DNA of 63,995 bases, the filler included, from Blastocystis sp. subtype 4 (lineage: Eukaryota): the NCBI RefSeq assembly GCF_000743755.1. It is 39 parts of 39 records of this genome, joined end to end, with 100 filler letters (N's around TTAATTAATTAA, not from the genome) between each part and the next. Parts side by side here need not be neighbours in the genome. Positions count along the whole stretch, not along the records: positions 56,470 to 57,940 come from NW_014568700.1; 38 more parts are not named here. One strand, written 5' to 3'. Both the position numbers and the translations under genes were made by a program. Below are positions 8,278-62,096 of this stretch, piece after piece. The notes under the pieces were generated by a model. That model saw only the letters and a list, made by a program, of their open reading frames with translations, did no database searches and had not been told where the DNA came from. Each line of letters starts with the position of its first letter. Within the stretch, counting starts at the first letter, position 1.

Positions 8278-8474
8278 AGTAGTAGGTAATTGACGTATGT
8301 TACGTATTCTTTCAAACAGACAAACCGTCGCAAACATGGGCCTCCAACCCTGGGTAGCTATACACGCTTAACCCTACCAGACAAAATCGCCAGTAAAATG
8401 CAGACAAAAAGGCCCGCAGACATTTTGATCATAATTTGGAAACATATCCAACCCATTTCAACTCAAATCATGGG
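8278..8474 (+). mobile_element. Young terminal repeat (putative TIR) of the Polinton-like element
   Basis: AGTAGTAGGTAATTGACGTATGTTACG...CATGGGCCTCCAACCCTGGGTAGCTATACACGCTTAACCC...AAATCATGGG. Closely similar to 42015-42230, 56739-56954 and 29851-29966. Confidence 0.8.
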
Positions 8475-8738
8475 TATGAATATAGCACAAATTCTTTGTT
8501 GTTTGTTTTATCACAATGAAAGATTTTGACATTAATAAACAGTATGAGATTTCCTAATGATATGATTCAACGATACATTTCAGAAATGATAAGTCACCTA
8601 TTCACAAACTATNNNNNNNNNNNNNNNNNNNNNNNNNNNNNNNNNNNNNNNNNNNNTTAATTAATTAANNNNNNNNNNNNNNNNNNNNNNNNNNNNNNNN
8701 NNNNNNNNNNNNTTCGTTGATATTGAGAAAAGAAAGAA

Positions 8739-15878: not shown

Positions 15879-15978
15879 NNNNNNNNNNNNNNNNNNNNNN
15901 NNNNNNNNNNNNNNNNNNNNNNTTAATTAATTAANNNNNNNNNNNNNNNNNNNNNNNNNNNNNNNNNNNNNNNNNNNN

Positions 15979-17464
15979 CCTGAGAAGGAATTCCTGAGAT
16001 GATTCCAGTAGATGAATTGAGAGATAGACCTATTGGTAGTGATCCTGATGTAATCGAGAATGATAGTTCATCTCCATCAACAGTGGGAATGATAGAGAAT
16101 ATATTACTCTTTGCCAGAATAAATGAAGATTGAGGATAAGAGAATGAAGAGATGGGAGTGATAACAGTGAATGAAAGAACAACAGTTTCAATTGCTGTTC
16201 CACTCACTGCTTCAATTGTGACTGATTGAGAAGAGAGTAATTGAGAAGGAGATCCAGAGATGACTCCAGTTGATGGATTGATAGATAGACCAATAGGAAG
16301 TGATCCTGAGACAATGGAGATAGTAGAGACTTTGGTGATATTGGGAGTGATAGAGAAGGATAGTCCTTGACCAATGATGAGATTGGTTTGAGGATATGAG
16401 ATGAGAGATGAAATGATCTCAATTGATACAATACGGATGAGAGTTCTTGAATCAGAAATGGCAGTGATATTGTAAGAAGAGAAAGAAAGAGAAGTGAGAG
16501 TTCCAGAGATAGTACAAGTAGTACGATTGAGAATGAGTCCTTGAGGAAGAGAAGGAGTGATGTGACAGTTCATAACACCATTCATATCAATAGTGAATGA
16601 GATGGATTGATGAATGAGAAATGAATAGGAAGATGAAGGAAGAAAGATTCGACGAATGAATATACAATGATCCAACTTGACTTCACCCAATACACCTCCA
16701 GAACACTCACGATATGAATATCCACTGTAACCCTCAGGACAAGAAGAAGGAGAGATTTGACCTTCACCCACTAAAGGATAGTTGCCAATTGAAGGACACA
16801 CAGATCCTGTTGGCTTACAATAGGCCATATGAACCGAGCCCAAAGTGGTTGTAGTTGAACCAGTATCAGTAACTTCCCATCGATATCTGCGGAATCCAGC
16901 CAAAGCCACAGGAACAGGAATCTGAGGCTTTGTTCGAGAAGTCACAGTCTGATCAACAGCACTCAGAATTGTAATAGTTTCCTCCTCATCATTAGGATTG
17001 GAATAAGCATAGATATCAAAGCCCAAAGAAAAAACAGTATTAGATCCAACTATGTTGAATGAATTCCATTTGCTTCCAACCAGATTCTCAACAGTCCATT
17101 CGATATAGGTTCCAATTGCATTAAGAAGTCTACCAGTAGTGTAAGGATCCAAATCCATGATTCCAGCAAGAGTACCTGAACTGGGATTCGTAGAAGTGAG
17201 AGAAGAATAAGAATCAACAACAGTAGAACAATCTTCAACTCCAAATACTCCAGTAGCATCAAACACAACAGGATCAGAAGACTGAATACATTACTACCTT
17301 CCTCAATTCCAGATGTTGAAAGAATCACATGGAACTTCGAGAACACAGTAGAATCATGATCAGTAATTGATAGACTCAAAGAATCGAAATTATCTTCAAG
17401 ATTGAATCGAGCAACCAGATTTCCATTCAGATAGGCAGCCACTCCTCCAGAATACTTCACTCGA
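15979..17464 (-). CDS. He_PIG surface protein fragment (frame break near 17280)
   Basis: Galactose-binding-like segment, Cys-rich CPEGYSGYSYREC, then Ig repeats (LPIGLSINPSTGVISGSP). Confidence 0.75.
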
Positions 17465-20551: not shown

Positions 20552-20651
20552 NNNNNNNNNNNNNNNNNNNNNNNNNNNNNNNNNNNNNNNNNNNNTTAAT
20601 TAATTAANNNNNNNNNNNNNNNNNNNNNNNNNNNNNNNNNNNNNNNNNNNN

Positions 20652-22089
20652 ACTCTCTTCTCAATCAGTCACAATCGAAGCAATGAGTGGAACAGCAATT
20701 GAAACTGTTGTTCTTTCATTCACTGTTATCACTCCTATCACTTCATTCTCTTATCCTCAATCATCCTATATTCTATCAAGAGATGATCCTGTTTCAATCA
20801 TTCCTACAGTCAATGGAGATGATCCTTCCTTCTCTATCACATCTGGATCTCTTCCTATTGGTCTATCTCTCAATCCGTCAACTGGAGTCATATCAGGAAC
20901 TCCTTTTCTATCAGTATCATCTCAAACGGTTACTATCAAAGCATCAAATGAATTGAGTCATCAATCTATCTCACTCACATTCACAGTACTCGTTTCTATC
21001 TCTTCATTCTCATATCCTCAATCATCCTTTGTTCTGACAAAGAATACTCCATTTTCCATCTCTCCTTCTGTTGATGGAGATCAACTCTCATTCTCTATTT
21101 CATCAGGATCACTTCCTGTTGGACTCTCGCTCAATCCTTCAAATGGAATTATCTCAGGAAACCCTTCTCAATTTGTGTCATCTCAATCAGTTACAATCAA
21201 AGCATCAAATGAAGTGAGTGATCAATCATTCTCTATTTCATTCACTGTTCTCACTCCCATCTCTTCATTCTCATATCCTCAGACTTCCTATATCCTATCA
21301 GCTGGTGTATCATTCTCTATTACTCCCACTATCAATGGAGATGATCTATCATTCTCTATCATATCAGGATCACTTCCTTATGGATTGTCACTCAACTCTA
21401 CAACAGGAGTCATATCTGGAACTCCTTCTCAATCAGTATTACCTCAACCAGTTACTATCAAAGCATTCAATGAAGTGAGTGATCAATCTGTTGCTATCAT
21501 AATCACCATTCTCACTCCCATTTCTTCATTTTCATATCCTCAATCATCTTATGTTCTATCAAGAGATGATCCTGTTTCAATCATTCCTTCAATCAATGGA
21601 GATGAACTCTCATTCTCTATCACATCTGGATCTCTTCCTATTGGTCTATCTCTCATTTCATCAACTGGAATGATATCAGGAACTCCTTCTCAATCAGTAT
21701 CATCTCAATCAGTCACAATCAAAGCATTCAATGAAGTGAGTGATCAATCATTCTCTCTTTCATTCACTATTCAACTCATTCCTTCATCTCTCAACTACAA
21801 TCAAACCATCTTCATCATTCAAAACAACATCCACTTCAGTACAACTCCCACCTGTGAAGGAGATGATCTGTCATTCTCCATTATCTCTGGATCTCTTCCT
21901 ATTGGTCTATCTATCGATTCATCAACAGGAATCATATCTGGAACTTCTCTATCTTCAATTCCTCTCACAAACATCACCATTCAAGCATCCAATCAAGTCG
22001 GATCAACTCAATTCACAATCTCCATTCTAGTCATTATTCCTCTATCCAATCTTCATTATTCTCAATTCTCATTCACTCTCATCAAAGGA
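20652..22089 (+). CDS. Tandem He_PIG (putative Ig) repeat region of a surface protein
   Basis: About five 87-aa units (SFSYPQSS...GSLPIGLSLNPSTGVISGTP). Confidence 0.85.
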
Positions 22090-22189
22090 NNNNNNNNNNN
22101 NNNNNNNNNNNNNNNNNNNNNNNNNNNNNNNNNTTAATTAATTAANNNNNNNNNNNNNNNNNNNNNNNNNNNNNNNNNNNNNNNNNNNN

Positions 22190-28964: not shown

Positions 28965-29239
28965 TGGGAAGATAAAGATATGGAAACAATTGGTTTACAA
29001 GAAAAAGACAATGAAGAATGAATCTAGACTGGCTTATACTCTCAAGACATTCAACCGAGCTGTTGGCATTTCAGTCATTCTCTCTGAAGAACAAGGTACT
29101 GAAGATTCTTGGATGACTGAAGTCAATAATTAATGCATTTACTTTGTACGTGATGATCATTATGAAGAATACTTTCATCTTGTCTTATACCACTCAGCAA
29201 TTTGGTTAGAGTTGTGATATGAAGAATACAGATGTACTT

Positions 29240-29379
29240 GTTGTTGTTAATTACCCACTAATTTGATTCGAAATGATAAAGCGAGGATTCCATTTTTGTC
29301 ATTTTCCTGTATAGCTACCCAGTGTTAAACGTCCATGTTGGTGAAGGTTTGTACATGATATACATCAATTACCACTACT
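29240..29379 (-). mobile_element. Degenerate terminal repeat of the Polinton-like element
   Basis: AGTAGTGGTAATTGATGTAT...CAACATGGACGTTTAACACTGGGTAGCTATACAGG. Confidence 0.7.
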
Positions 29380-29850: not shown

Positions 29851-29966
29851 TGGCGTTTTTGTCTGGTAGGGTTAAGCGTGTATAGCTACCCAGGGTTGGA
29901 GGCCCATGTTTGCGACGGTTTGTCTGGTTGTAAACAATACGTATCATGCTTCAATTACCTACTAGT
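29851..29966 (-). mobile_element. Young terminal repeat (partial)
   Basis: ACTAGTAGGTAATTGAAGCATGATACG...CATGGGCCTCCAACCCTGGGTAGCTATACACGC. Confidence 0.8.
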
Positions 29967-30180: not shown

Positions 30181-31060
30181 AGTAGTAGCAGTTAACGACA
30201 TATTATTATGGGGTATACTACCAAAAAGGGTTTCCAACCCTGGGAATCTACATGGAAATCACAAAAAGATGGTAAGTTCACTTTACTATTTCGAATCATG
30301 TTGGTGGGTGATAAACAACTGAGTCATTGTGTCTATTCTCCCATTCATGAAAACGTGTTGCTCAATAATCATTAATGGCAAACAACAAATGGTCCATTCA
30401 CTGGAGATATTATGTACATTAGAATCCTTTCATTACAATCAAGAAAGTACTACTAACACCATATTCAGATGCCCTATTCTCAAATATTGATCACATCAAT
30501 ACTGTTTCTAATACTAAATGAGAATTTGTTGTTTGATTAATGATACTCTATCTCACATCATTGCTATTCTCCATCAAATGCATTACGCATTATTCTCATT
30601 ATCCAGTGTTGTTTGCTGTTACCGTTGTATTTACATTGATTCCAATTGTACAATGTGAATACAACCATAACAGATGTTGATTGATAGAAACAGAATAGAA
30701 CACTGATAACAATCCTAAAGTATTTTTAGGACTGAGGGATTGATATGAATGATGAACTGTAATGAAATAATATGTGAATTGTACATTAATGAGAATTGCT
30801 TCTGAATATCATTGAATCACTTCTTTACGCTCATTATCCTGAATCAATGTTCATTAGAGATGGATTTGTGAATGAGGTGTAGTTACTCTTCATGATGTAT
30901 ACCTCACACTAACGTAATGTATGACATTAGTATGCATCAATATGAGAACAGATAAGTGAGTGATAAACAAAGAAGATGCTGCAGTGAACAAGATGTATTG
31001 ATCATTAGATAGTATCTGTCAGATGGATTTGAATGGACAAGAGGTTGATAGTATGATTGA
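30181..31060 (+). mobile_element. Degenerate non-autonomous derivative: terminus, truncated penton-like gene (30353-30660), shared internal segment
   Basis: AGTAGTAG...TTCCAACCCTGGG, then CACATCATTGCTAT...ATTGATTCCAATTGTACAATGTGAAT, then sequence shared with 39850-40245. Confidence 0.65.
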
Positions 31061-39476: not shown

Positions 39477-39534
39477 ACTATTCTTCATAATTCTCGTCAC
39501 ATCATGTGAATGTGTTTATTCTTCATTCATTAAG

Positions 39535-40245
39535 ATGTATTAATCAATAATCATTCAAGACTAATCATCTAATAGATCATTCATTTGGAACAATCCTTAT
39601 CGATTCAATAATCATTTCATTACATACATCAAAGTACTTCACACCTCTTCAAATACACTCTTTACAAACATCAATCAATTCAATACTCTCTTCAATATCA
39701 AATGTGAATCAATCATATTTGATAAACGATACTATACTCTACCTCACATCATTGATATGATCAATCAAGTACAATACACATCAATCTCAATATCCAATTC
39801 TGTATCCAGTTATGGTTGTATTCATATTGATTCCAGTTGTACAATGTGAATGAAGAACAAGTGATTATGATTGATAGAAACAGAACAGGATACTATATGA
39901 TAACAATCCTAAATGATTGATATGAGACTGAAGAATTAACATGAATGTTGTGGTGATGTGTTGAGCTGATATAGAGTGGTGAGAATGCCTTCTGAATATC
40001 ATTGAATCACTTCTATACAGTCGATTTCCTGAATGATTATTCATTAGAGATGATGTTGTTAATGAAGTGTAGTTTCTCTTTATGACGTATACCTCACACC
40101 GATATAATGTATGCCTAAAGTATACACCAATATAAGAACAAATAAGTGATGATAAACAAAGAAGATGCTGCAGTGAACAAGATGTGTTGATCATTCGATA
40201 GTATCTGTCAGATGGATTTGAATGAACAAGAGGTTGATAGTATGA
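39535..40245 (+). mobile_element. Truncated penton-like relic plus shared internal segment
   Basis: ATG..TCAATAATCATTCAAG...CCTTATCGATTCAATAAT...GGTTGTATTCATATTGATTCCAGTTGTACAATGTGAAT. Abuts a He_PIG module at 40245-40418. Confidence 0.65.
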
Positions 40246-40518
40246 TTGAAGATAAGAGAATGAAGAGATAGAAGTGATAACAGTGAATGAAAGAACAACA
40301 GTTTCAATTGCTGTTCCATTCACTGCTTCGATTGTGACTGATTGAGAAGAGAGTAATTGAGAAGGAGATCCAGAGATGACTCCAGTTGATGGATTGATAG
40401 ATAGACCAATAGGAAGTGNNNNNNNNNNNNNNNNNNNNNNNNNNNNNNNNNNNNNNNNNNNNTTAATTAATTAANNNNNNNNNNNNNNNNNNNNNNNNNN
40501 NNNNNNNNNNNNNNNNNN

Positions 40519-41914
40519 AGGCTTGTAAAGACGTTGAATCAGTGAAATCATGGTACTCTTTCCACAACCACTAGGACCCACAAAAGCAACAGATTTGCCT
40601 TGGGGAATTGTAAATGATACCGATTTGAGAATCGGAGCTTCAGGACGTGTTGGATAGGTGAATGAAACGTCCTTGAAGGTGATATCACCGTTCTGACCTT
40701 CTGTCTTGATCTCGCGAACTGCATCATCTTCACTCTTCTGGCCCAAGATCCCCACAACAGTATCAGCAGCCTTTCTAGCTAGTTTAAGAGAAGCAGCAAA
40801 GGCCATTGTGAAACTTGCTGTCGAGGCACTCGTAGATACTGTCATATACACGAACAACAGCTGTGTGAAGGTAATCCAACCGTGGTTCATGAACCAGGAA
40901 CCCATACTCAACATCACAATCACATAGACACATGGAATGAGTTGAGTGAAGAATTGACCAACTGATTGACGAATCATTCGTGTCTTCGTCCTCTCATCTG
41001 CTTGTTTTATGTCCTTATCAATGGAATTCAGTAAGGTATCCTCCAATCCATAAGCTCGAACTGTGTGGATATTCAGTAAATAGTCTGTAATGACACCTGA
41101 CTCCTTCGTGAGGTCTGCATCTATCAATTCAGTTGTTCTGCCTACAACCATGTACTGAAGATAACTTACAGACAACAGAAATGGAGTCATTACGAGAGCG
41201 ACCAAAGCCAACCTCCAACTTCCCAGAGGAGAGAAGCACATAACCAGATTGACAATGGCTATCATATAGTTTTCAACTATCATTCCACTCTGATCCTGGA
41301 TATCTCGTATGCGTCGACATTCAATTCCAACACGGGATGTGAGAACTGCAGGGAAGTGTTTGGGGTCGTCAAAGAAAGCCATCTGCATGGAGAGATACTT
41401 CTTTAGTAGCCGTATTCGAAGTTCAGCAATGAGATTTTCTCCTAGAATACTTGTCATCACCCAATGAAGGATAGTACCAAAGACATCCGAGATACATGCA
41501 AGAACGATAAACCAAACACACATCCAACCTCGCTTCACAAAATATGTGAGATCAAATATATAGAGCAGTTCTTGCATTTGGGACACGGCATACGAATATG
41601 CTGGTGGGTATACAACACGGAAGAAGTTACCAATGAATCCAACCCAGAATGTCCAAGCATAACGAGGAATGAATGTTAACAACTGGTTCATTGAGACATG
41701 TTCATACTCTTCTTCTGTTTCTACTTCCACCACCTCTTCCTCTGCTTCAACTTTCTGTTCAGTCTGTTGGTCTTCTTTTGGAGTCACAGACACTGATGGA
41801 GCCGTGTCTTGACTTTCATACAGAGCAGAGTAAATGCCCTTCTTATTCAATAACTCCTCATGAGTTCCTTCCTCAACCACATGTCCTTCATCCACAACCA
41901 CAATTCGATCACAC
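40519..41914 (-). CDS. ABCB (P-glycoprotein/MDR-type) full transporter, internal fragment
   Basis: End of NBD1 (EEGTHEELL), TMD2, start of NBD2 (FTYPTRP, GPSGCGKST). Confidence 0.93.
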
Positions 41915-42014
41915 NNNNNNNNNNNNNNNNNNNNNNNNNNNNNNNNNNNNNNNNNNNNTTAATTAATTAANNNNNNNNNNNNNNNNNNNNNNNNNNNNNN
42001 NNNNNNNNNNNNNN

Positions 42015-42230
42015 CCATGATTTGACTTGAAATGGGTTGGATATGTGTTCCAAATTATGATCAAAATGTCTGCCTTTTCGAGCTTGTTTATGGGCCTTTT
42101 TGTCTGCATTTTAGTGGCGTTTTTGTCTGGTAGGGTTAAGCGTGTATAGCTACCCAGGGTTGGAGGCCCATGTTTGCGACGATTTGTCTGGATAATAACA
42201 ATACGTAACATACGTCAATTACCTACTACT
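42015..42230 (-). mobile_element. Young terminal repeat (putative TIR)
   Basis: AGTAGTAGGTAATTGACGTATGTTACG...AAATCATGG. Confidence 0.82.
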
Positions 42231-42250
42231 ATCACACCTATCAAGAACAT

Positions 42251-42405
42251 AGTATCGTTTTGATGTATATTATATTCAAATTGGAAGCAGACAAAACTGT
42301 CACCAACATGGGTCTTCCAACCCTGGGTAGTTATAGAGGGAAATGGCAAGAAGATGGAAGGCTCACTTCCATTTCAAGTCAAATTGTTAGGTGATTAACA
42401 ACAAG
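42251..42405 (+). mobile_element. Degenerate terminal repeat, back-to-back with the previous one
   Basis: AGTATCGTTTTGATGTAT...CAACATGGGTCTTCCAACCCTGGGTAGTTATAGAGGG. Confidence 0.65.
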
Positions 42406-42569
42406 TTTGATAAGTTTGAACATTTGAATGTGAGACAGATGAAAATGATTGAACGAGAAGAAGAGTGTAGAAGCTAAGGATTGGATGAATTTGAATTGAT
42501 GATTGTACCATTATTGATATTTGTTGTTGAGATATTAGATACAGATAGGAGAAATCGAGTGTATTGAAG

Positions 42570-43021
42570 CCATTCACTGATATTCAGAAGGCATTCTCAC
42601 CACTGTACATCAATTCAAACATCACTACAATTCATCATTCATATCAATTCTTCAATCTCATATCAACCTGTTAGAAATGTTCAAATAGTGTTCTGTTCTG
42701 TTTCCATCAATCACAATCTCTTGCTTCACACTGAACAATTGGAATCAATGTGAATACAACCATAACTAGCAGTATTGGATAATGAGAATGATGTGTGTTG
42801 TATTTGATTGAGCATAGCAATGATGTGAGATAGTATAGTATCTTTTATCAAACATGATTGATTCACATTTGGTACTGAATTGATGTTTGAAAGAGTGCGT
42901 TTGAAACATGTATGAATAGTACTTTGATGAATATAATGAATGGATTGTTGAGTCAATAGAATTGTTTCAAGTAAATGATCCATTTGATTGTTTGTCTTGA
43001 ATGACTATTGAGTAAATACAT
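42570..43021 (-). mobile_element. Truncated penton-like relic plus shared internal segment
   Basis: SHIIAMLNQIQHTSFSLSNTASYGCIHIDSNCSV, then the same downstream segment as 39850+. Confidence 0.65.
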
Positions 43022-46427: not shown

Positions 46428-46527
46428 NNNNNNNNNNNNNNNNNNNNNNNNNNNNNNNNNNNNNNNNNNNNTTAATTAATTAANNNNNNNNNNNNNNNNN
46501 NNNNNNNNNNNNNNNNNNNNNNNNNNN

Positions 46528-47897
46528 AAAGAGAGAATGATTGATCACTCACTTCATTGAATGCTTTGATTGTTACTGATTGAGATGATATTGATTGAGA
46601 AGGAGTTCCTGAGATCATTCCAGTTGATGAATTGAGAGATAGGCCAATAGGAAGAGATCCTGAAGTGATAGAGAAAAAAGGATTCGTCCCTTGCTTTTCT
46701 GGTGAGACAGAATAGTCTTCTCCAAGAGAAAGGATATAAGAAGTCTGAGGATAAGAGAACGAAGAGATAGGAATTAGAACAGAAAATGAAAGAGAATACG
46801 TTCGATTACTCACTTCATTGAATGCTTTGATTGTAACGGATTGAGATGACACTGAATGAGAAGGAATACCTGATATCATTCCATTTGATGAGTTAAGCAA
46901 CAGACCAATAGGAAGAGATGCTGATGAAACAGAGAACGATAAGTTATCTCCAGTAACCGTAGGAGTGATGAAGAATGATTCATCTATTGATAGGGTATAC
47001 GAAAACTGAGGATATGAGAATGAAGAGATAGGAGTGAGAACAGTGAATGAAAGAGAGAATAATTGATTCTCCAATTCATTAGATACTTTGATTGTTACTG
47101 ATTGAGATGATACTGATTGAGAAGGAGTTCCTGATATCATTCCATTTGAAGAATTGAGTGAGAGTCCAACTGGAAGAGATCCGAATGTAGTCAAGAATGA
47201 AAGCTCATCTCCATCAACAGTAGGAGAGATACAGAATGGACTGTTCTTTGACAGAACATAAGATGATTGAGGATAAGAGAATGAAGAGATAGAAGCGAGC
47301 ACTGTGAACGCAAGTGAGATAGTTTGATTACTCACTTGATTGAATGCTTTGATTGTTACTGATTGAGATGATACTGATTGAGAAGGAGATCCTGATATCA
47401 TTCCAGTTGATGAATTGAAAATCAAACCAGTAGGAAGCAATCCTGATATGATAGAGAAAGACTGCTCATCTCCATCAACAGTAGGAGAGATACAGAATGG
47501 ACTGTTCTTTGACAGAACATAAGAAGATTGAGGATAAGAGAATGAAGAGATAGAAGCGAGCACTGTGAACGCAAGTGAGATAGTTTGATTACTTACTTTA
47601 TTCGATGCACTGATTGTAACTGATTGAGATACGACAAACTGAGAAGGAGTTCCTGATATGACTCCGTTTGATGGATTGAAAGATAATCCAGTAGGAAGAG
47701 ATCCTGATGTGATAGAGAATGAGACCTCATCTCCATCAACAGTAGGAATGATAGAGAATGGATGATTCTTTGTGAGAAAATAAGATGATTGAGGATATGA
47801 GAATGAAGAGATAGGAGTGATAACAGTGAATGAAAGAACAACAGTTTCAATTGCTGTTCCACTCACTGCTTCGATTGTGACTGATTGAGAAGAGAGT
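46528..47897 (-). CDS. Tandem He_PIG repeat region
   Basis: About five 87-aa Ig-like units. Confidence 0.85.
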
Positions 47898-47997
47898 NNN
47901 NNNNNNNNNNNNNNNNNNNNNNNNNNNNNNNNNNNNNNNNNTTAATTAATTAANNNNNNNNNNNNNNNNNNNNNNNNNNNNNNNNNNNNNNNNNNNN

Positions 47998-50931: not shown

Positions 50932-53142
50932 CAACTTGACAAACCTGATCCCGATAGATAGTTGCTAACACTTGATATTTCCAGGAATTGAAGATAAAGT
51001 ACTGATTAACAGAGATACCAATACGCGAGTCAGTATCTCTCAGATAAGTGAGAATGTCCTTATCTGCTATATTACAGAGACGATTGATTTCAATTATGGA
51101 GACGAGCGGATTCTTCGCAGTTAATAACTTCCGAATATCTTTCTTCACTAAATAGATGAACTTTTGCGTTTCAGGATCCAATGTTGTCTTCATATCTACC
51201 TTCAAATCAAGATGATCATAGAATAGACTATATAGATGCTTTGAAGTCCTTTTGAATAGCCCCTTATCATCAATAAACAATTGACCAATCTCCTTTTGAT
51301 TCAGAAAGAATAATCCATCTCCTTCTCGGGCATGACTCATGTAATAGTCTCGAATACTTCTCAACAGAGGAATTACATCCATCTGAAGAGTAGTGTCAGC
51401 TTGACAAATAGCGATTCCTTGAACCAATGGTTGAAGATAATATACTGTTCTCAGAAGCTCCCTTTTATCAATCTTTCCCATTGAAGCCATGAATTCATTC
51501 TTCTTTTGTTTGCTGTAGGCAGTAGGGTTCTGTTTCATATCCTTATATAAAGCTTTCATAGACTCATACAATGAATAGAATCTTCTCATAACTAAAACTG
51601 CACTATACCACCGCGTTTCACAGTATGATAGGAGTTTATATCGCCTATTCCTCTTTCTCTTAGGAATCCAAAGATCAGGAACAGCAATACAACTATCGTT
51701 AGCGTCACTAGAATCGCTGGAGTCATCCCCTGAGTCATTAGGGAGAGTACTGTCTTTGATATCATTATTCATACTAGTATCATCAATCCATATGTGCTCC
51801 ATTTCATTCCTTTCGTAGAGTGATTCACGGACATACTGAACGATTGGTCCTTCATCAAGATTACCTATAGATAATTAAACAATCCAAGAAATACTCCTAT
51901 TCTCATAACACCAGGACCACTCAAGGATCTGAGGAATTGGCTCAAACGGTGAGATTTGTTGGAATTCCATCATCTTGTTGTAGAGAATCTTGGAGGATAA
52001 TACACAGGCATTTGCTTCACGCACCTAATAATGAGAGAGATAACCATCACGGACATTATTCCAAAGAGTCTTTAGAGGCTCCTGTTTCAACATCTTCTTG
52101 AGTATTCCATTCAGATAATGTGATACACAAGGAATACGAGGTATACTCCTTCCACAATAAGCTTTCACAAAATCCTCTGTTCCTCGCATGACACTACAGT
52201 TGTCTGTTGCATATGCAACAACATCAAGGCCCAGTTTAGTTAACTCCTTCACTTGATCAGCTATTGCCTTCCCAACATCACTAGATGCTCTTGTTTCCAT
52301 ACTAATACTGTCCCAAAAGAAAACGTTCACCCCTCTCATATCAATATCACTATCTGCTGCTAACACGAAATTGTAATAAGAACAATGATTCTTCCTCATC
52401 TCATCAACAACTAGAGTCACTTTACAACCCATTAGTTGATTCACAACAAAATCCATCACCTTCTTTGCAGTATGAGGAAGCAGCTTATTACAGAATGTCG
52501 TCGAACTTACTCTACGAAACTCCGGCGCACAAGATTCCATGAATATTCTCCACCAAGGAGAATCCAACAGAGATAGCGACAAATTGGCATTTGAAGCAAA
52601 TAACACCAAATCATCATTGCTAGTAGCAGTTCGTTTCACGTAGTGATCCATTGTTCCTTCTTCCTGATGAGTCTAGAGGTTGTGAACGAATCACAATTAT
52701 ACTCGTTTTATAGATTTCATGCCACAAACGACATCAATACTATTATTCATCATCTTAGTGTTGTAGGTGCTCACAATCTACTATTAACTCTATTCCAAAA
52801 TGTTACATCCCTTATTGTAACTGAGTAAATGGAATAATCACTCGAGAAATGGTTTTGATATGGTTGATGCATTTCTTCTTATCCGCAGAAATCAGTTTCT
52901 TACATATGAAACCTGCAATTGAACATAGCATACAGTCACATACATGTTACTTTACATTTATTTCTCTTTGAATATAGAATCATCCTCTTATCCCCAGAGA
53001 ATACCTCAATATACTTATCATCTGGCATACTCCTAGGATCAGTAACCATAACTCTGCCATAATTGACTAAGATGTCTGATACAATCTCCGATGAAGGTAG
53101 TTCCACTCCCCTTTTCTCTAAACAAGTCTTTAGGAGTTCCAT
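50932..53142 (-). CDS. hAT-superfamily transposase-derived protein with introns, 3'-truncated
   Basis: BED-like CFIC..H, TLVVDE, YATDN, CxxH (PCVSH), ETRWYS. Confidence 0.8.
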
Positions 53143-56469: not shown

Positions 56470-56692
56470 CGATTATGTCAGCTAGAGTATAATATCCTTT
56501 CTCAAATACTACAGATTCTCCTTTATCATTAGATACAGTATTGGTTTGATCAATGTTTGAAAAGAGTGAATCTGAATTTGGTGTTAATAGTACTTTCATC
56601 ATAGTAATGTATGGATTATTGAAACGATAAGGATTCTCTCATGTGAATGATCCATTTGATGGTTTGCCTTGAATGATTATTGAATAATGCAT
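56470..56692 (-). pseudogene. Penton-like gene 5' part, least decayed copy (single in-frame TGA)
   Basis: MHYSIIIQGKPSNGSFT*ENPYRFNNPYITMMKVLLTPNSDSLFSNIDQTNTVSNDKGESVVFEKGYYTLADII. Starts ~47 nt inside the terminal repeat. Confidence 0.7.
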
Positions 56693-56738
56693 TTATTGCT
56701 AGAAAGAATTAACGACAACATTCTTGTTCTTATTGTTG

Positions 56739-56954
56739 CCCATGATTTGACTTGAAATGGGTTGGATATGTTTCCAAATTATGATCAAAATGTCTGCCTT
56801 TTCGAGCTTGTTTATGGGCCTTTTTGTCTGCATTTTACTGGCGTTTTTGTCTGGTAGGGTTAAGCGTGTATAGCTACCCAGGGTTGGAGGCCCATGATTG
56901 CGACGATTTGTCTGTATGTTAAGAATACGTAACATACGTCAATTACCTACTATT
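56739..56954 (-). mobile_element. Young terminal repeat (putative TIR)
   Basis: AATAGTAGGTAATTGACGTATGTTACG...AAATCATGGG. Confidence 0.82.
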
Positions 56955-57109
56955 AAGATTATGTAGAACGAGTCCGAGGCCTGAATGGTATGGACATTAA
57001 GTGCCCGCTACGGCATCTAAGTAGTGTTTATAGTGTTTAACATCTATTTTGTAACAAACAATATCTAATCACATTAATCTTAAACCCCTACACATATCTC
57101 GCTCGTATA

Positions 57110-57940
57110 TTCTCTCCTCTTAAATGTACATATTCTTCTGTTGAATGAATCGATTAAGAGAATCAGCATCTCATTCATTATCAATCAATCAATCATACTT
57201 GAACTATGCAATTCTCTTACCCCTTCAAATGGTTTATCTCCGTAATATTCCATCTCAATTCCTTCTTCACTCAGTGATGGAATGTCTAATTCAAATACAA
57301 TCATCAATCATCACTATCCAAGATCACTTTCACTATGTACTTGAAATTGTAACCATCTCCTTTAAGTGTAGATAGAGAAGGAAGATCTCATCAATCAATC
57401 ATTGTCATTCATACTCTTCATTATCAATTCATTCGTTTCTCTTGTATAATCACCATATAGAGCCAATGATCCAAGAATGATGGATTGAAGTCGATTCAGA
57501 TCTTATTCATCATTCATTCAATCATTCATACTCTCAAATACTATCCGTTGACAATTCTTAAATGCATAACCATCCAATTGAATGGATATCAGAGAAGGAA
57601 GATTCTTCAATTCAAATGATTCATACCAATAGAATGATCTGTATCCAATGTTGATGTCACTCAATTGATCACAATTCATTATCAAACATTTGCTTCCTTC
57701 TCTATTAACCCAATCAAGACAGAAGCTGTTCTTTCCAATAACCAAAGTCTTCAATTCATTCAATCCATTAATCACAAATCGATTCACATTCTTAAAACAA
57801 TCATGTCCAATCTCAATTCGTTTCAATGATATCAATGAATAGTTCAATATCAATGATGATATATCAGGATTGAAATGATCAGCAATAATCAGAGATTCAA
57901 TACAACTAGTAACAATCAATTCACAATCATCAATCCATTT
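57110..57940 (-). CDS. BspA-like LRR protein fragment
   Basis: Paralog of 3983-4760 with the same short introns. The 3' end is approximate. Confidence 0.75.
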
Positions 57941-58040
57941 NNNNNNNNNNNNNNNNNNNNNNNNNNNNNNNNNNNNNNNNNNNNTTAATTAATTAANNNN
58001 NNNNNNNNNNNNNNNNNNNNNNNNNNNNNNNNNNNNNNNN

Positions 58041-59438
58041 AGTAGGAAGAGATCCTGATATGATTGAGAATGAGAGTTCATCTCCATCAACAGTAGGAGA
58101 GATAGAGAATGATTCACCAGCAGATTGAACATATGTAGACTCAGGATAAGAGAATGAAGTGATGGATTGAAGAACAGTGAATATGAGTATGGCAGGCTGA
58201 TCACTTACTTCATTGAATGCTTTGATAGTGACTGATTGAGATATGACAGATTGAGAAGGAGTTCCTGATATCATTCCATTAGAAGGATTGAAAGATAGAC
58301 CAGTAGGAAGTGATCCTGATATGATTGAGAATGAGAGTTCATCCCCATCGATTGAAGGAGAGATAGAGAATGGATCATATTTGGATAGAGTATATGTAGA
58401 ATTAGGATAAGAGAATGAAGTGATGGATTGAAGAACAGTGAATGAAAGAGAGAATGATTTATCATTACTCACATCATTGAATGCTTTGATTGTGACTGAT
58501 TGAGATAAGACAAACTGAGAAGGAGTTCCTGATATCATTCCATTTGAAGGATTGAAAGATAAACCAATAGGAAGAGATCCAGAAGTAATAGAAAATGAAG
58601 GTTCATATCCATCAACAGTAGGAGAGATAGAGAATGGATCATTCCTTTTCAGAACATATGTAGAGTCAGGATATGAGAATGAAGTGATGGATTGAAGAAC
58701 AGTGAATGAAAGAGAGAATGATTTATCATTACTCACATCATTCGAGGCTTTGATTGTGACTGATTGAGATAAGACAAACTCAGAAGGAATTCCAGAGATG
58801 ACTCCAGTTGAAGGATTGAGAGACAAACCAGTAGGAAGAGATCCTGATGAGGTAGAGAATGATAAATCATCTCCATCGATTGAAGGAGAGATAGAGAATG
58901 GATCATTCCTTGATAGAACATACGTAGAATTAGGATAAGAGAATGAAGTGATGGATTGAAGAACAGTGAATGAAAGAGAGAATGATTTATCATTACTCAC
59001 ATCATTCGAGGCTTTGATAGTAACTGATTGAGATATGATGAATTGAGAAGGAGTTCCTGATATCATTCCAGTTGTTGAATTGAGAGACAAACCAGTAGGA
59101 AGAGATCCTGATGAGGTAGAGAATGATAAATCATCTCCATTGATTGAAGGAGAGATAGAGAATGGATCATTCCTTGATAGAACATACGTAGAATTAGGAT
59201 AAGAGAATGAAGTGATGCGAGTGAGCACCTTGAATGAAAGAGGGAAGGTCTGATTACTTACTTCATTGAATGCTTTGATTGTAACTGATTGAGATATGAT
59301 GAATTGAGAAGGAATTCCTGATATCATTCCATTAGAAGAATTGAGAGACAAACCAGTAGGAAGAGATCCTGATGAGATAGAGAATGATAAATCATCTCCA
59401 ATGACAGTAGGAGAAATAGAGAATGGATCATCTTTGGA
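58041..59438 (-). CDS. Tandem He_PIG repeat region with highly homogenised units
   Basis: Near-identical 264-nt (88-aa) units, e.g. at 58456, 58720 and 58984. Confidence 0.85.
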
Positions 59439-60284
59439 NNNNNNNNNNNNNNNNNNNNNNNNNNNNNNNNNNNNNNNNNNNNTTAATTAATTAANNNNNN
59501 NNNNNNNNNNNNNNNNNNNNNNNNNNNNNNNNNNNNNNTGTGTATCTTCTACATACCCTGTTACCATCCACCTACATACGATTAGAATATACTAAAACAA
59601 TTCGTTTATTCACCCCAATGCAGCTCGTAATGATGAACAAAGCCTACCATTTTCTTCACATTTCCATTTATTGCTATTAAGGATTGAAGATTCATTTTGG
59701 CGACATACTTGGTTGTGCATGATTAGCATTAACTGCTCATCTCTATCGTTTCTAAGATGATTTAGGTATTGCTAATACCAGCAAAGACATTGAAGTTCCT
59801 CATTATGATTATTGACGAAACGAAGAATCGAATCACCTCTTAGTATGAGCATTATACACAATCACATTGATTTCTATTCTTCGATACCGTTATTGCCATC
59901 TCTCAACAGATCAGTGTGCTTTTGACATGTGCTTTTGACACTAATAGGATAATAAACAATCATTTCTCATTTCATATTACTTCATAAGCACGAATAAACT
60001 GTTTCTGGATGTATTCAAAGCATTGTCCTTAACAACGTATATCAGATACTGAACATTTATCCTGACAGCCAAATAATCAGGAAGGATCCAATAAATGTAC
60101 ATTTGACTAATAGAATAAAGGACCAAATACCCAATTATGATCCTATAATATGTGCATGTTCAGTAATGTGACATTGTGTTGCTTGTTATTACCTCCACAT
60201 ATTACCTCCACATCGTAGAAACGATGAATGGTGGAATACACTCGCTTGTAGTATAATTCATTTGAGAGAATACTCAAGCAAATA

Positions 60285-62096
60285 TGCGCAAGTACAATAA
60301 AGCAGCTAGGCCTCATCCAGAACCTCACACTACTAACTCCAGCAGCTATCCAGAAGCGACTCCGTATTCCAACAAGAAAGAGAGGTATTGTGAGGGTGAT
60401 TAATCAATGAATAGAGCCATTGGGAACATTGAAAGAGGTTCTTTGACTTCTGAACAATTTGATGTACTCACTACTGTTTTGAAGGGCTATGTTTGTGTTT
60501 GCTGTTGATTCATAATGAGAATGTCTTTTTCACTGGTGAAGCAGGAACTGGAAAGAGTCACTTACTCCGAGTTATTGTAACAGCTCTTCAACAACAACTA
60601 GGAGCCAACCATGTTTATGTGACAGCATCTACAGGCATTGCTGCTAATCACATTGACGGGACCACTATTCACTCCTTTGCAGGAATGACATCTCCTGACA
60701 TTAATCCTGCATACATCTACAAGCAGATACTAAACCAAAGTACCAAGGAAGTGATAAATCACTGGAAGACTTGTGAAGTCTTGATCATCGATGAGATATC
60801 GATGATAGATGGTCGCTTTTTCGATACGCTTGAATACAAAGCCAGACGTGTTCGGAATAACAATCTTCCTTTTGGAGGAATTCAAGTCATTCTTTGTGGT
60901 AGATTCTTTGATATTCACAATCATTCTTAGGAGATTTCTTCCAGTTGCCTCCTGTGGGACTTGACAAGAATGGTGTCAAGTTTGCTTTTGAGGCACATTC
61001 ATGGGATACAGTGATTGAAGTGGACTTTGATTGATAGATTAATAGATAGAAGAAAATGGTACTTACAACCGCTTTCAGGCAACAAGATCAGCGTTTGCAA
61101 AAACTGTTGAGAGATATTCGATATGTAGGATTTGTTTGTCTAGTTGTCAAGATAGGGTCAATGCTCTCAACAATCTTTACAACTCATTGATGAAATGAGT
61201 AATCATGATGTAGATGCGATGCTGAGTAACTCTACACCTGATCATGAAATGGGTGAAGTTGTTGAGGAGATTGGTCAAGAGAGTATGGTAATTGAAAGTA
61301 CTCAGTAGGAACTGGTTGATAGAATAACAACAGTCTATTCGCAAAGAATGATTGAAAGTACTCAGTAGGAACTGGTTGATAGAATAACAACAGTCTATTC
61401 GCAAAGAATGATGAAGCTAATAAGTATAACAAGATGAAGCTAGATGAGTTAAGAGGTTCATCGAAGCCTTACAAAGCTGTTGACAAGGAATGTACAATCT
61501 GTATTGAATTACAACCATAGTTGTTGCTAATGGCATCAAGAAACTGAATAAGCATTGTTTAGCTGCNCAAGTATTGAGATAAAGCAAGGAGCTCAGGTAA
61601 TGCTATTGAAGAATTTGGATTTGAAAATGGGATTGGTGAATGGAGTAAGTGGAAAGGTTATCTCCTTTGCTAGGGATTGTGAAGGCGGTGAATTGTTGCC
61701 TCTGATAAGATGGAAAACGAGAAATGGAGATTTGACCAAGTTGTGTCATCGAGTTGAGTTCAAGATTTCTAAAGAAGGTAAAACGCTTGCATGTCGTTCT
61801 CAACTTCCAAATGAATGAGGAATGTGATCTAGGCATGGGGAGTAACCATTCACAAGGCACAGGGAATGACACTTGAGTACTTAACGATCGATTTATCAGA
61901 TGTGTTTGAATGTGGCATGACGTATGTGGCTATGAGTCGAGGAGTAACTTGTGATCACATGTGTGTGAAAGGATTTAAGAAGGAAGATGTGAAGACGAAT
62001 CCAAGAGTATTAGCATTTGATAAGACAATTCGAGGAGAGAGAGAAGCACCTCATCCTGTTCAATCAGCACCAGTGATTCGTTTATATCCTTTCTAG
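60285..62096 (+). CDS. PIF1: PIF1-family SF1B DNA helicase (multi-exon, with lesions)
   Basis: FFTGEAGTGKS, TASTGIAA, GTTIHSFAG, LIIDEISM, PFGGIQVILCGDFFQLPPV, GAQVMLLKN, TIHKAQGMTL, YVAMSR. Start approximate. Confidence 0.9.

What the first reader, a model, noticed from the sequence alone, without database searches (positions are those of the whole stretch)
56470..56954. Endogenous Polinton/Maverick-like virus: AGT-repeat terminus followed by a minor-capsid-like gene
Seen: a ~215-bp repeat ending (minus strand) in A(G/A)TAGTAGG is followed ~47 nt inward by an intronless reading frame. The same terminus-then-gene arrangement recurs at 6429->6241 and 30181->30353. Established: Polintons/Mavericks have TIRs of a few hundred bp starting with 5'-AG short tandem repeats (linked to protein-primed replication) and encode a single-jelly-roll penton. 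Inference: this is the end of an integrated Polinton-like virus family in a probable Blastocystis genome. The ORF track misses it because copies are decayed. I cannot tell whether it has already been reported.
Basis: partly seen in the sequence, partly recalled or inferred. Interest (0 to 1): 0.92.

Follow-up and report, generated by a model that had tools for sequence, protein, structure and literature searches.

The report
End of integrated Blastocystis MELD virus
This is one end, with a broken capsid-corner gene, of an already catalogued DNA virus that likely copies itself around the genome of the gut protist Blastocystis; whether it still makes particles is untested.

Summary
Real, correctly read, already known. 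56470-56956 (minus strand) is a ~225-245-bp terminal repeat followed by the first 74 codons of a penton gene with a stop at codon 18; the contig ends there. It is 94.9% identical to the left end of an intact element in gut metagenomes (L007). The same repeat leads into the opposite arm (L002/L005/L008, and window 8278-8612), which carries pPolB and an rve integrase. The left arm carries an A32-like ATPase, an adenain-type protease and pentons. The penton fold was confirmed by AlphaFold2 and two structure searches. Four ORFs are letter-for-letter proteins of GenBank's 'Blastocystis MELD virus' (Starrett 2021), and both arms have consecutive gene numbers in the ST4 BT1 assembly. Not seen here: the major capsid gene (middle of the element not held) and target-site duplications. 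Possibly undescribed: 99.5%-identical arms at different flanks (recent spread), an older decayed subfamily, and a tandem double-penton protein with a ~560-aa insert beside a third penton gene.

The parts
56711..56956 (-). Terminal inverted repeat, left (penton-side) end, young subfamily; starts AATAGTAGG here, AGTAGTAG in most copies; strict shared part ends near 56732
56470..56692 (-). First 74 codons of the 1019-aa tandem penton gene; in-frame stop at codon 18; cut by the contig end
   Evidence: 71/74 residues identical to P0003, 67/74 to L007; fold of the intact domain
56966..57940 (-). Host-side flank: a repeated segment, then a leucine-rich-repeat-like gene piece (57521-57940); the same segment lies about 670 bp outside the terminus in L001, L009, L013, L016, L017
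8278..8612 (+). Opposite (pPolB-side) end of the element on another contig: terminal repeat and start of the 99-aa ORF
   Evidence: 89% over 354 nt to L002; 23/23 residues of the 99-aa ORF
42015..42231 (-). Young terminal repeat, cut by the contig end
   Evidence: 96% over 217 nt to 56740-56955
29851..29966 (-). Young terminal repeat fragment, cut by the contig end; same junction in L019
5700..6432 (-). Old-subfamily left end: degenerate terminus and frameshifted penton residues 1-183
   Evidence: 76.5% over 596 nt to L007; tblastn
30181..31060 (+). Old-subfamily left end with decayed, internally deleted penton gene
39514..40249 (+). Old-subfamily penton fragment: residues 1-105 joined to 274-352
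42250..42405 (+). Old-subfamily terminus, back to back with the young repeat at 42231
42530..43015 (-). Old-subfamily penton fragment with an internal deletion like that of 39514-40249
29238..29352 (-). Old-subfamily terminus remnant

Best explanation
The stretch is the left terminal repeat and the stop-interrupted start of the penton gene of the Blastocystis MELD virus, a roughly 22-kb Maverick/Polinton-type DNA virus that sits in several copies in Blastocystis (likely subtype 4) chromosomes and likely still moves. Shown: repeat, penton fold, integrase, pPolB-like and ATPase-like genes in intact copies, host-flanked junctions. Inferred from family knowledge: an excised copy is replicated by the protein-primed polymerase from the AGT-repeat ends and re-inserted by the rve integrase. 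It would be packaged by the A32-like ATPase into a double-jelly-roll capsid matured by the protease, which would cut the 338-aa protein at its Gly-Gly sites. The vertex would be built from the tandem penton protein and the separate 227-aa penton. This particular copy cannot make the long penton and would depend on other copies.
For: Window 56917-56470 is 94.9% identical to L007 6-454, whose ORF is 1019 aa and open. The same repeat leads into the penton arm in 3 sequences and into the pPolB arm in 7, of the 12 where the inner boundary motif was found; one more was degenerate and two ended at the boundary (13 rows in all less L016). Integrase: Pfam rve 5.8e-11. pPolB: motifs A/B/C at 1130, 1299, 1400; a 56%-identical relative hits DNA_pol_B_2 at 5.8e-16. 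ATPase: Walker A/B, Atlas Pox_A32 0.98. Penton: pLDDT 88.7; mavirus penton E 3.8e-8 and adenovirus penton bases; 'putative penton capsid protein, MELD virus sp.' 66% identical; VIA Z 11.0, rmsd 5.3, 212 aligned to an adenovirus capsid chain, and Z 9.4, rmsd 6.9, 213 aligned to mavirus penton. Identity with the known virus: exact matches DAC81483, 81485, 81494, 81497; same 90% cluster for DAC81484, 81487, 81488. One locus: BT1 KAK8797670 (pPolB), 71 (integrase), 75, 76 (ATPase), 77 (227-aa penton) on a 979,865-bp contig. Recent spread: three 10-kb right arms 99.5-99.6% identical with three different flanks; 22 junctions fall into about 14 flank groups and 17 of 22 start AGTAGTAG.
Against: No major capsid gene was seen: the two arms held do not overlap, and the gene is only inferred from one unfilled slot in both numbering series. 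No target-site duplication could be paired. The element's own pPolB, ATPase, protease and penton hit no fitting Pfam or NCBIfam model. No single sequence read here carries both termini. The window copy's first bases differ from the usual terminus and 11 nt next to it do not match the shared flank, so it may be a rearranged remnant. No relative was found in IMG/VR.
Confidence: 0.9

Rival explanations
1. Copy-level rival: this window copy is not the end of a whole provirus but a short dead fragment, spread passively with the leucine-rich-repeat gene segment beside it.
For: Stop at codon 18. The flank is a repeated segment that stands next to the terminus in five other loci at a different distance. 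The old copies in the window and L013 are all short left-end pieces, three with a like internal deletion.
Against: 95% identity runs to the last base of the contig with no frameshift; the break is the assembly's.
Confidence: 0.35
2. Life-style rival: the virus needs a giant helper virus, as mavirus does, and serves as an antiviral defence rather than replicating on its own.
For: Same toolkit as mavirus (pPolB, rve integrase, adenain, A32); best solved match of the penton is mavirus. No RNA polymerase among the 17 ORFs held.
Against: Starrett describes its PolB and integrase as Alpha-adintovirus-like. The egovirus preprint reports no gene flux between those gut giant viruses and Blastocystis. 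A shared fold says nothing on life style.
Confidence: 0.2
3. A self-synthesizing transposon that has lost its major capsid gene and no longer forms particles.
For: Major capsid gene not seen here; no particle data.
Against: Pentons, ATPase and protease are open in L007 and their proteins recur on hundreds of contigs. One gene slot is unfilled in both numbering series. Starrett reports inferred virion proteins.
Confidence: 0.06
4. A free virus or contaminant, with junctions to host DNA made by the assembler.
For: All junctions read here come from short-read contigs; repeats cause misjoins.
Against: The same junctions recur in separate assemblies (L002/L011; L008/L012/L018; L019/window) and in run X1. 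The proteins are annotated on 0.5-2-Mb BT1 contigs.
Confidence: 0.03

Closest known systems
Blastocystis MELD virus (Starrett et al. 2021, PMC8502044; proteins DAC81483-DAC81497 seen)
   Same: Four ORFs identical letter for letter, three more in the same 90% clusters, gene order matches the accession order; PolB plus integrase plus divergent virion genes as in section 3.4.
   Different: Nothing shown to differ. The text read does not describe termini, copy number, flank variation or penton architecture; Fig. 5 and the cut supplement could not be seen. The 1019-aa penton was not among the named members read (40 of 589).
MELD virus sp. penton A0A8S5L5B1 / DAD57286 (996 aa)
   Same: Same long penton, already named 'putative penton capsid protein'; 66% identical in the first domain, 51% over the whole alignment row.
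   Different: A sister lineage; its host was not tested here.
Vertebrate Mavericks/Polintons (PMC8097293)
   Same: (AGT)2 end motif, terminal inverted repeats, intronless pPolB, integrase, ATPase, protease, minor capsid.
   Different: Protist host; three penton domains in two genes; a 369-aa fibre-like and an 830-aa ORF; 6-bp duplication, major capsid, PZ/PW/PM not shown here.
Mavirus and endogenous mavirus-like elements (virophages)
   Same: Penton fold; pPolB plus rve integrase in a stramenopile host (recalled).
   Different: 12-14% penton identity; no helper virus known to me; virophage marker profiles not tested.

Membership tests
Blastocystis MELD virus | Protein identity with the deposited record | tested here: met
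   Exact: DAC81483, 81485, 81494, 81497; same cluster: DAC81484, 81487, 81488; window piece 94.9% to the L007 copy
Maverick/Polinton | Terminal inverted repeats with (AGT)2 or (AG)3 ends | tested here: met
   One repeat leads into either arm; 17 of 22 junctions start AGTAGTAG; motif definition from PMC8097293. Both ends were not seen on one sequence.
Maverick/Polinton | 6-bp target-site duplication | tested here: inconclusive
   No complementary flank pairs among 15 flank strings and no clean empty site; loose ends gave no pair. Both junctions of one insertion were never in hand.
Maverick/Polinton | Protein-primed family B polymerase | tested here: met
   1602-aa ORF with motifs A/B/C (motif patterns recalled); 56% relative hits PF03175; the protein itself does not hit the Pfam model
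Maverick/Polinton | Retroviral-type integrase | tested here: met
   Pfam rve 43 bits, cut-off 32.6
Maverick/Polinton | A32-like packaging ATPase | tested here: met
   Walker A at 123, Walker B at 219; Atlas Pox_A32 clusters at 0.98; no Pfam hit
Maverick/Polinton | Adenain-type cysteine protease | tested here: met
   His and Gln/Cys motifs; near-identical by eye to DAC81487 'adenain'; no Pfam hit
Maverick/Polinton | Single-jelly-roll minor capsid (penton) | tested here: met
Maverick/Polinton | Double-jelly-roll major capsid | not testable with these tools
   Middle of the element not held; records not available by handle; four further scans and one phage search found no relative. One unfilled gene slot in both numbering series.
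Maverick/Polinton | Intronless genes | tested here: met
   Continuous ORFs of 1019 and 1602 aa
Maverick/Polinton (vertebrate type) | PZ, PW, PM genes | not tested
   No profiles at hand
Virophage (Maveriviricetes) | Virophage-type hexon, ATPase and protease by their own profiles (PMC9952930) | not tested
   Profiles not available and hexon not held

The most novel reading that the evidence does not exclude
A still-mobile, particle-forming endogenous DNA virus of a common human-gut protist, present in several insertion-variable copies per subtype-4 genome in humans, rats and mice. Its vertex is built from three paralogous penton domains, one carrying a ~560-aa variable spike, an architecture conserved in a family of ~1000-aa pentons and not described in the papers I could search.
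Probability: 0.4. Interest if true: 0.62.

Novelty: already known. Interest (0 to 1): 0.33.

Why it matters
The element itself is catalogued, so the finding is a rediscovery. It still has uses. Blastocystis ST4 grows in culture, so it offers a place to look for Maverick-type virions, which PMC8097293 says have not been observed (search listing). Insertion sites would be strain markers. The passages of the long-read genome paper that I saw do not mention the virus, and its genes are labelled hypothetical there, so it is an unannotated source of gene disruption and of viral-looking contigs in gut metagenomes.

Tried and rejected
No whole genome for the window; the long contigs could not be read further by handle. 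Pfam on 9 window fragments gave nothing for the penton pieces; PDB sequence searches gave nothing for penton or pPolB. IMG/VR: 0 loci in 4 scans. GTDB contigs: 0. Phage records: 0. Rfam on 3 loci (L004, L017, L010): 0, so the flank segment is not a known RNA family. Target-site duplication: no pair. A 5-nt complementary match by eye between the L015 flank and one X3 loose end was set aside as within chance. RNA runs X16-X18 cover 23, 21 and 17 of 30 bins of the left arm with low-depth contigs; no silent control was laid, so this is not taken as expression. A first codon comparison was out of frame and was redone. An estimate of ~23 kb from contig lengths was dropped in favour of ~22 kb (21,706-bp record; many 21.3-21.9-kb contigs). 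The Atlas look-up of the penton insert did not complete. The full-length model is weak in the insert (pTM 0.39), and its Foldseek hits come from the penton domain. No complex was predicted: paralogous pentons would tend to pass by likeness to solved pentamers. Earlier findings of this scan: none returned.

Full report
Setting. The window is a set of short contigs joined by N linkers; no whole genome is held. Contig GC is 30-43%. Open frames include many Ig-like repeat and leucine-rich-repeat-like proteins (names by eye). The finding lies at the left edge of contig 56470-57940.

Observation. On the minus strand a repeat starts near 56956 and an ATG follows at 56692. A 16-nt core has 7 matches in the window against 0.01 expected. 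The frame has 74 codons up to the contig end and one stop, at codon 18.

Intact relatives. A 25-nt pattern from the repeat found 19 metagenome loci and none in IMG/VR. L007 begins inside the repeat and holds a 1019-aa ORF, then ORFs of 114, 227, 95 and 445 aa, and on the other strand 176, 338 and 830 aa. Window 56917-56470 matches L007 at 94.9%. L002, L005 and L008 hold the repeat followed by a different interior: 99, 163, 153, 1602, 188, 182, 339, 70 and 369 aa. The window has this opposite end too, at 8278-8612. Left and right ends share 217 of 233 nt, so the repeat is about 225-245 bp.

Gene identities. The 339-aa ORF is an rve integrase. The 1602-aa ORF has polymerase motifs A, B and C, and a 56%-identical relative hits DNA_pol_B_2, though it does not itself. 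The 445-aa ORF has Walker motifs and is nearest to Pox_A32 clusters. The 176-aa ORF is nearly the deposited adenain. The 338-aa ORF has eight Gly-Gly-Ala sites, which I read as protease sites from recalled adenain specificity. The 369-aa ORF looks fibre-like by eye only.

The penton. From 230 relatives, 120 were listed; 55 passed my length and redundancy filter, 54 of these plus the query and the 227-aa protein made alignment A2. The model of residues 1-223 has pLDDT 88.7. Its best solved matches are mavirus penton (E 3.8e-8), adenovirus penton bases and Sputnik penton; VIA-align agrees. The best predicted match is a 996-aa MELD-virus protein already named penton. A profile of this domain shows one whole copy at 1-223 and a second copy split into 246-360 and 923-1014 around a ~560-aa insert. 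All 20 long proteins tested show the first domain and the start of the second; 15 of 20 also show the closing part at E below 0.01. The 227-aa ORF is a third copy, 31% identical. The full-length model agrees on the two cores but is weak in the insert. I infer a mixed vertex with a projecting spike; this is untested.

It is known. Four ORFs, two from each arm, are identical to proteins of 'Blastocystis MELD virus' and three more share its clusters. Starrett et al. 2021 describe that virus in three sentences (PMC8502044: passages and all of section 3.4 read; figure not visible; supplement cut, no hit; preprint passages). A 2022 preprint uses its polymerase in a tree (one passage). In the ST4 strain BT1, pPolB, integrase, the 338-aa-type protein, ATPase and the 227-aa penton have accessions KAK8797670, 71, 75, 76, 77 on one 979,865-bp contig, which ties the arms together. 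Among the members listed, BT1 has 6 accessions for the 227-aa penton, 5 for the integrase and 4 for the ATPase. Both numbering series leave one slot between the 830-aa and 369-aa genes, where I infer the major capsid gene. Passages of the BT1 paper (PMC12129017) do not mention the virus. Bellas 2023 lists Blastocystis assemblies among those screened (Table S1 rows; file cut, so its results for them were not seen; main-text passages). Searches for Blastocystis with Polinton, Maverick and MELD virus gave 5, 5 and 3 papers; searches and passages of PMC9952930 and PMC12220804 showed no account of the tandem penton. Subscription journals and bioRxiv supplements were not searched.

Mobility. Three right arms of 10 kb are 99.5-99.6% identical and have three different flanks. 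Twenty-two junctions fall into about 14 flank groups by eye (15 strings by script; one flank is mostly adapter), and 17 start AGTAGTAG, the commonest Maverick end motif (PMC8097293 passages). Some junctions recur in separate assemblies and several flanks occur in one run. Runs that hold the left arm include rat and mouse gut metagenomes; only 4 runs were laid on it. No target-site duplication could be paired.

This copy. It is young (71 of 74 residues match P0003) but carries a stop. Its flank is a repeated segment beside a leucine-rich-repeat-like gene; five loci have the same segment with about 670 more bases before the terminus. It is either a separate insertion into a favoured repeat or a deletion product of that shared site. 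Whether the rest of the provirus follows beyond 56470 is unknown.

Verdict. The element is a known virus; the major capsid gene and duplications remain to be read from the long-read assembly. Interest 0.33; novelty: already known. The open, more interesting questions are current mobility, particles and the three-penton vertex.

Noticed in passing
window 50932-52672 (-): Two frames that look like an hAT-type transposase; only a weak DUF659 hit (E 0.0056, below cut-off).
   Followed up: partly
window 60463-60930 (+): PIF1-like helicase piece, Pfam 2.3e-31; cellular or mobile origin not examined.
   Followed up: no
window 42231/42250 and 29966/30181; L013 3320/5638: Young terminal repeats lie back to back with, or close to, old-subfamily termini, which suggests repeated insertion into the same regions.
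   Followed up: partly
window 30181-31060, 39514-40249, 42530-43015: Three old fragments join penton residues ~1-105 to ~271-350 and two share further downstream sequence: a short deleted derivative that was itself amplified.
   Followed up: partly
L002 1686-2461, also L011: The right terminus abuts the nucleotide-binding part of an ABC transporter frame, likely an insertion inside that gene; the junction is also in run X1.
   Followed up: partly
window 56966-57040; L004 670-1315; L013 2578-3318: A ~700-bp repeated segment of unknown nature stands outside the terminus in five loci and inside a truncated terminus in L004; no Rfam match.
   Followed up: partly
L007 6467-7480 (-): 338-aa protein with eight Gly-Gly-Ala sites next to the protease: candidate cleaved core protein.
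   Followed up: no
P0493: The sister-lineage penton carries a source label naming the subtype 7 reference assembly, a hint that relatives occur in other subtypes; 25 pPolB clusters at 43-100% identity were found.
   Followed up: no
window 15923-17290, 20608-22137, 46472-47941, 57993-59486: Large families of 87-88-aa tandem Ig-like repeat proteins (261-264-bp period) and related surface-type proteins.
   Followed up: no
window 40471-41958 (-): ABC transporter (multidrug/MDR-like by eye) fragment.
   Followed up: no
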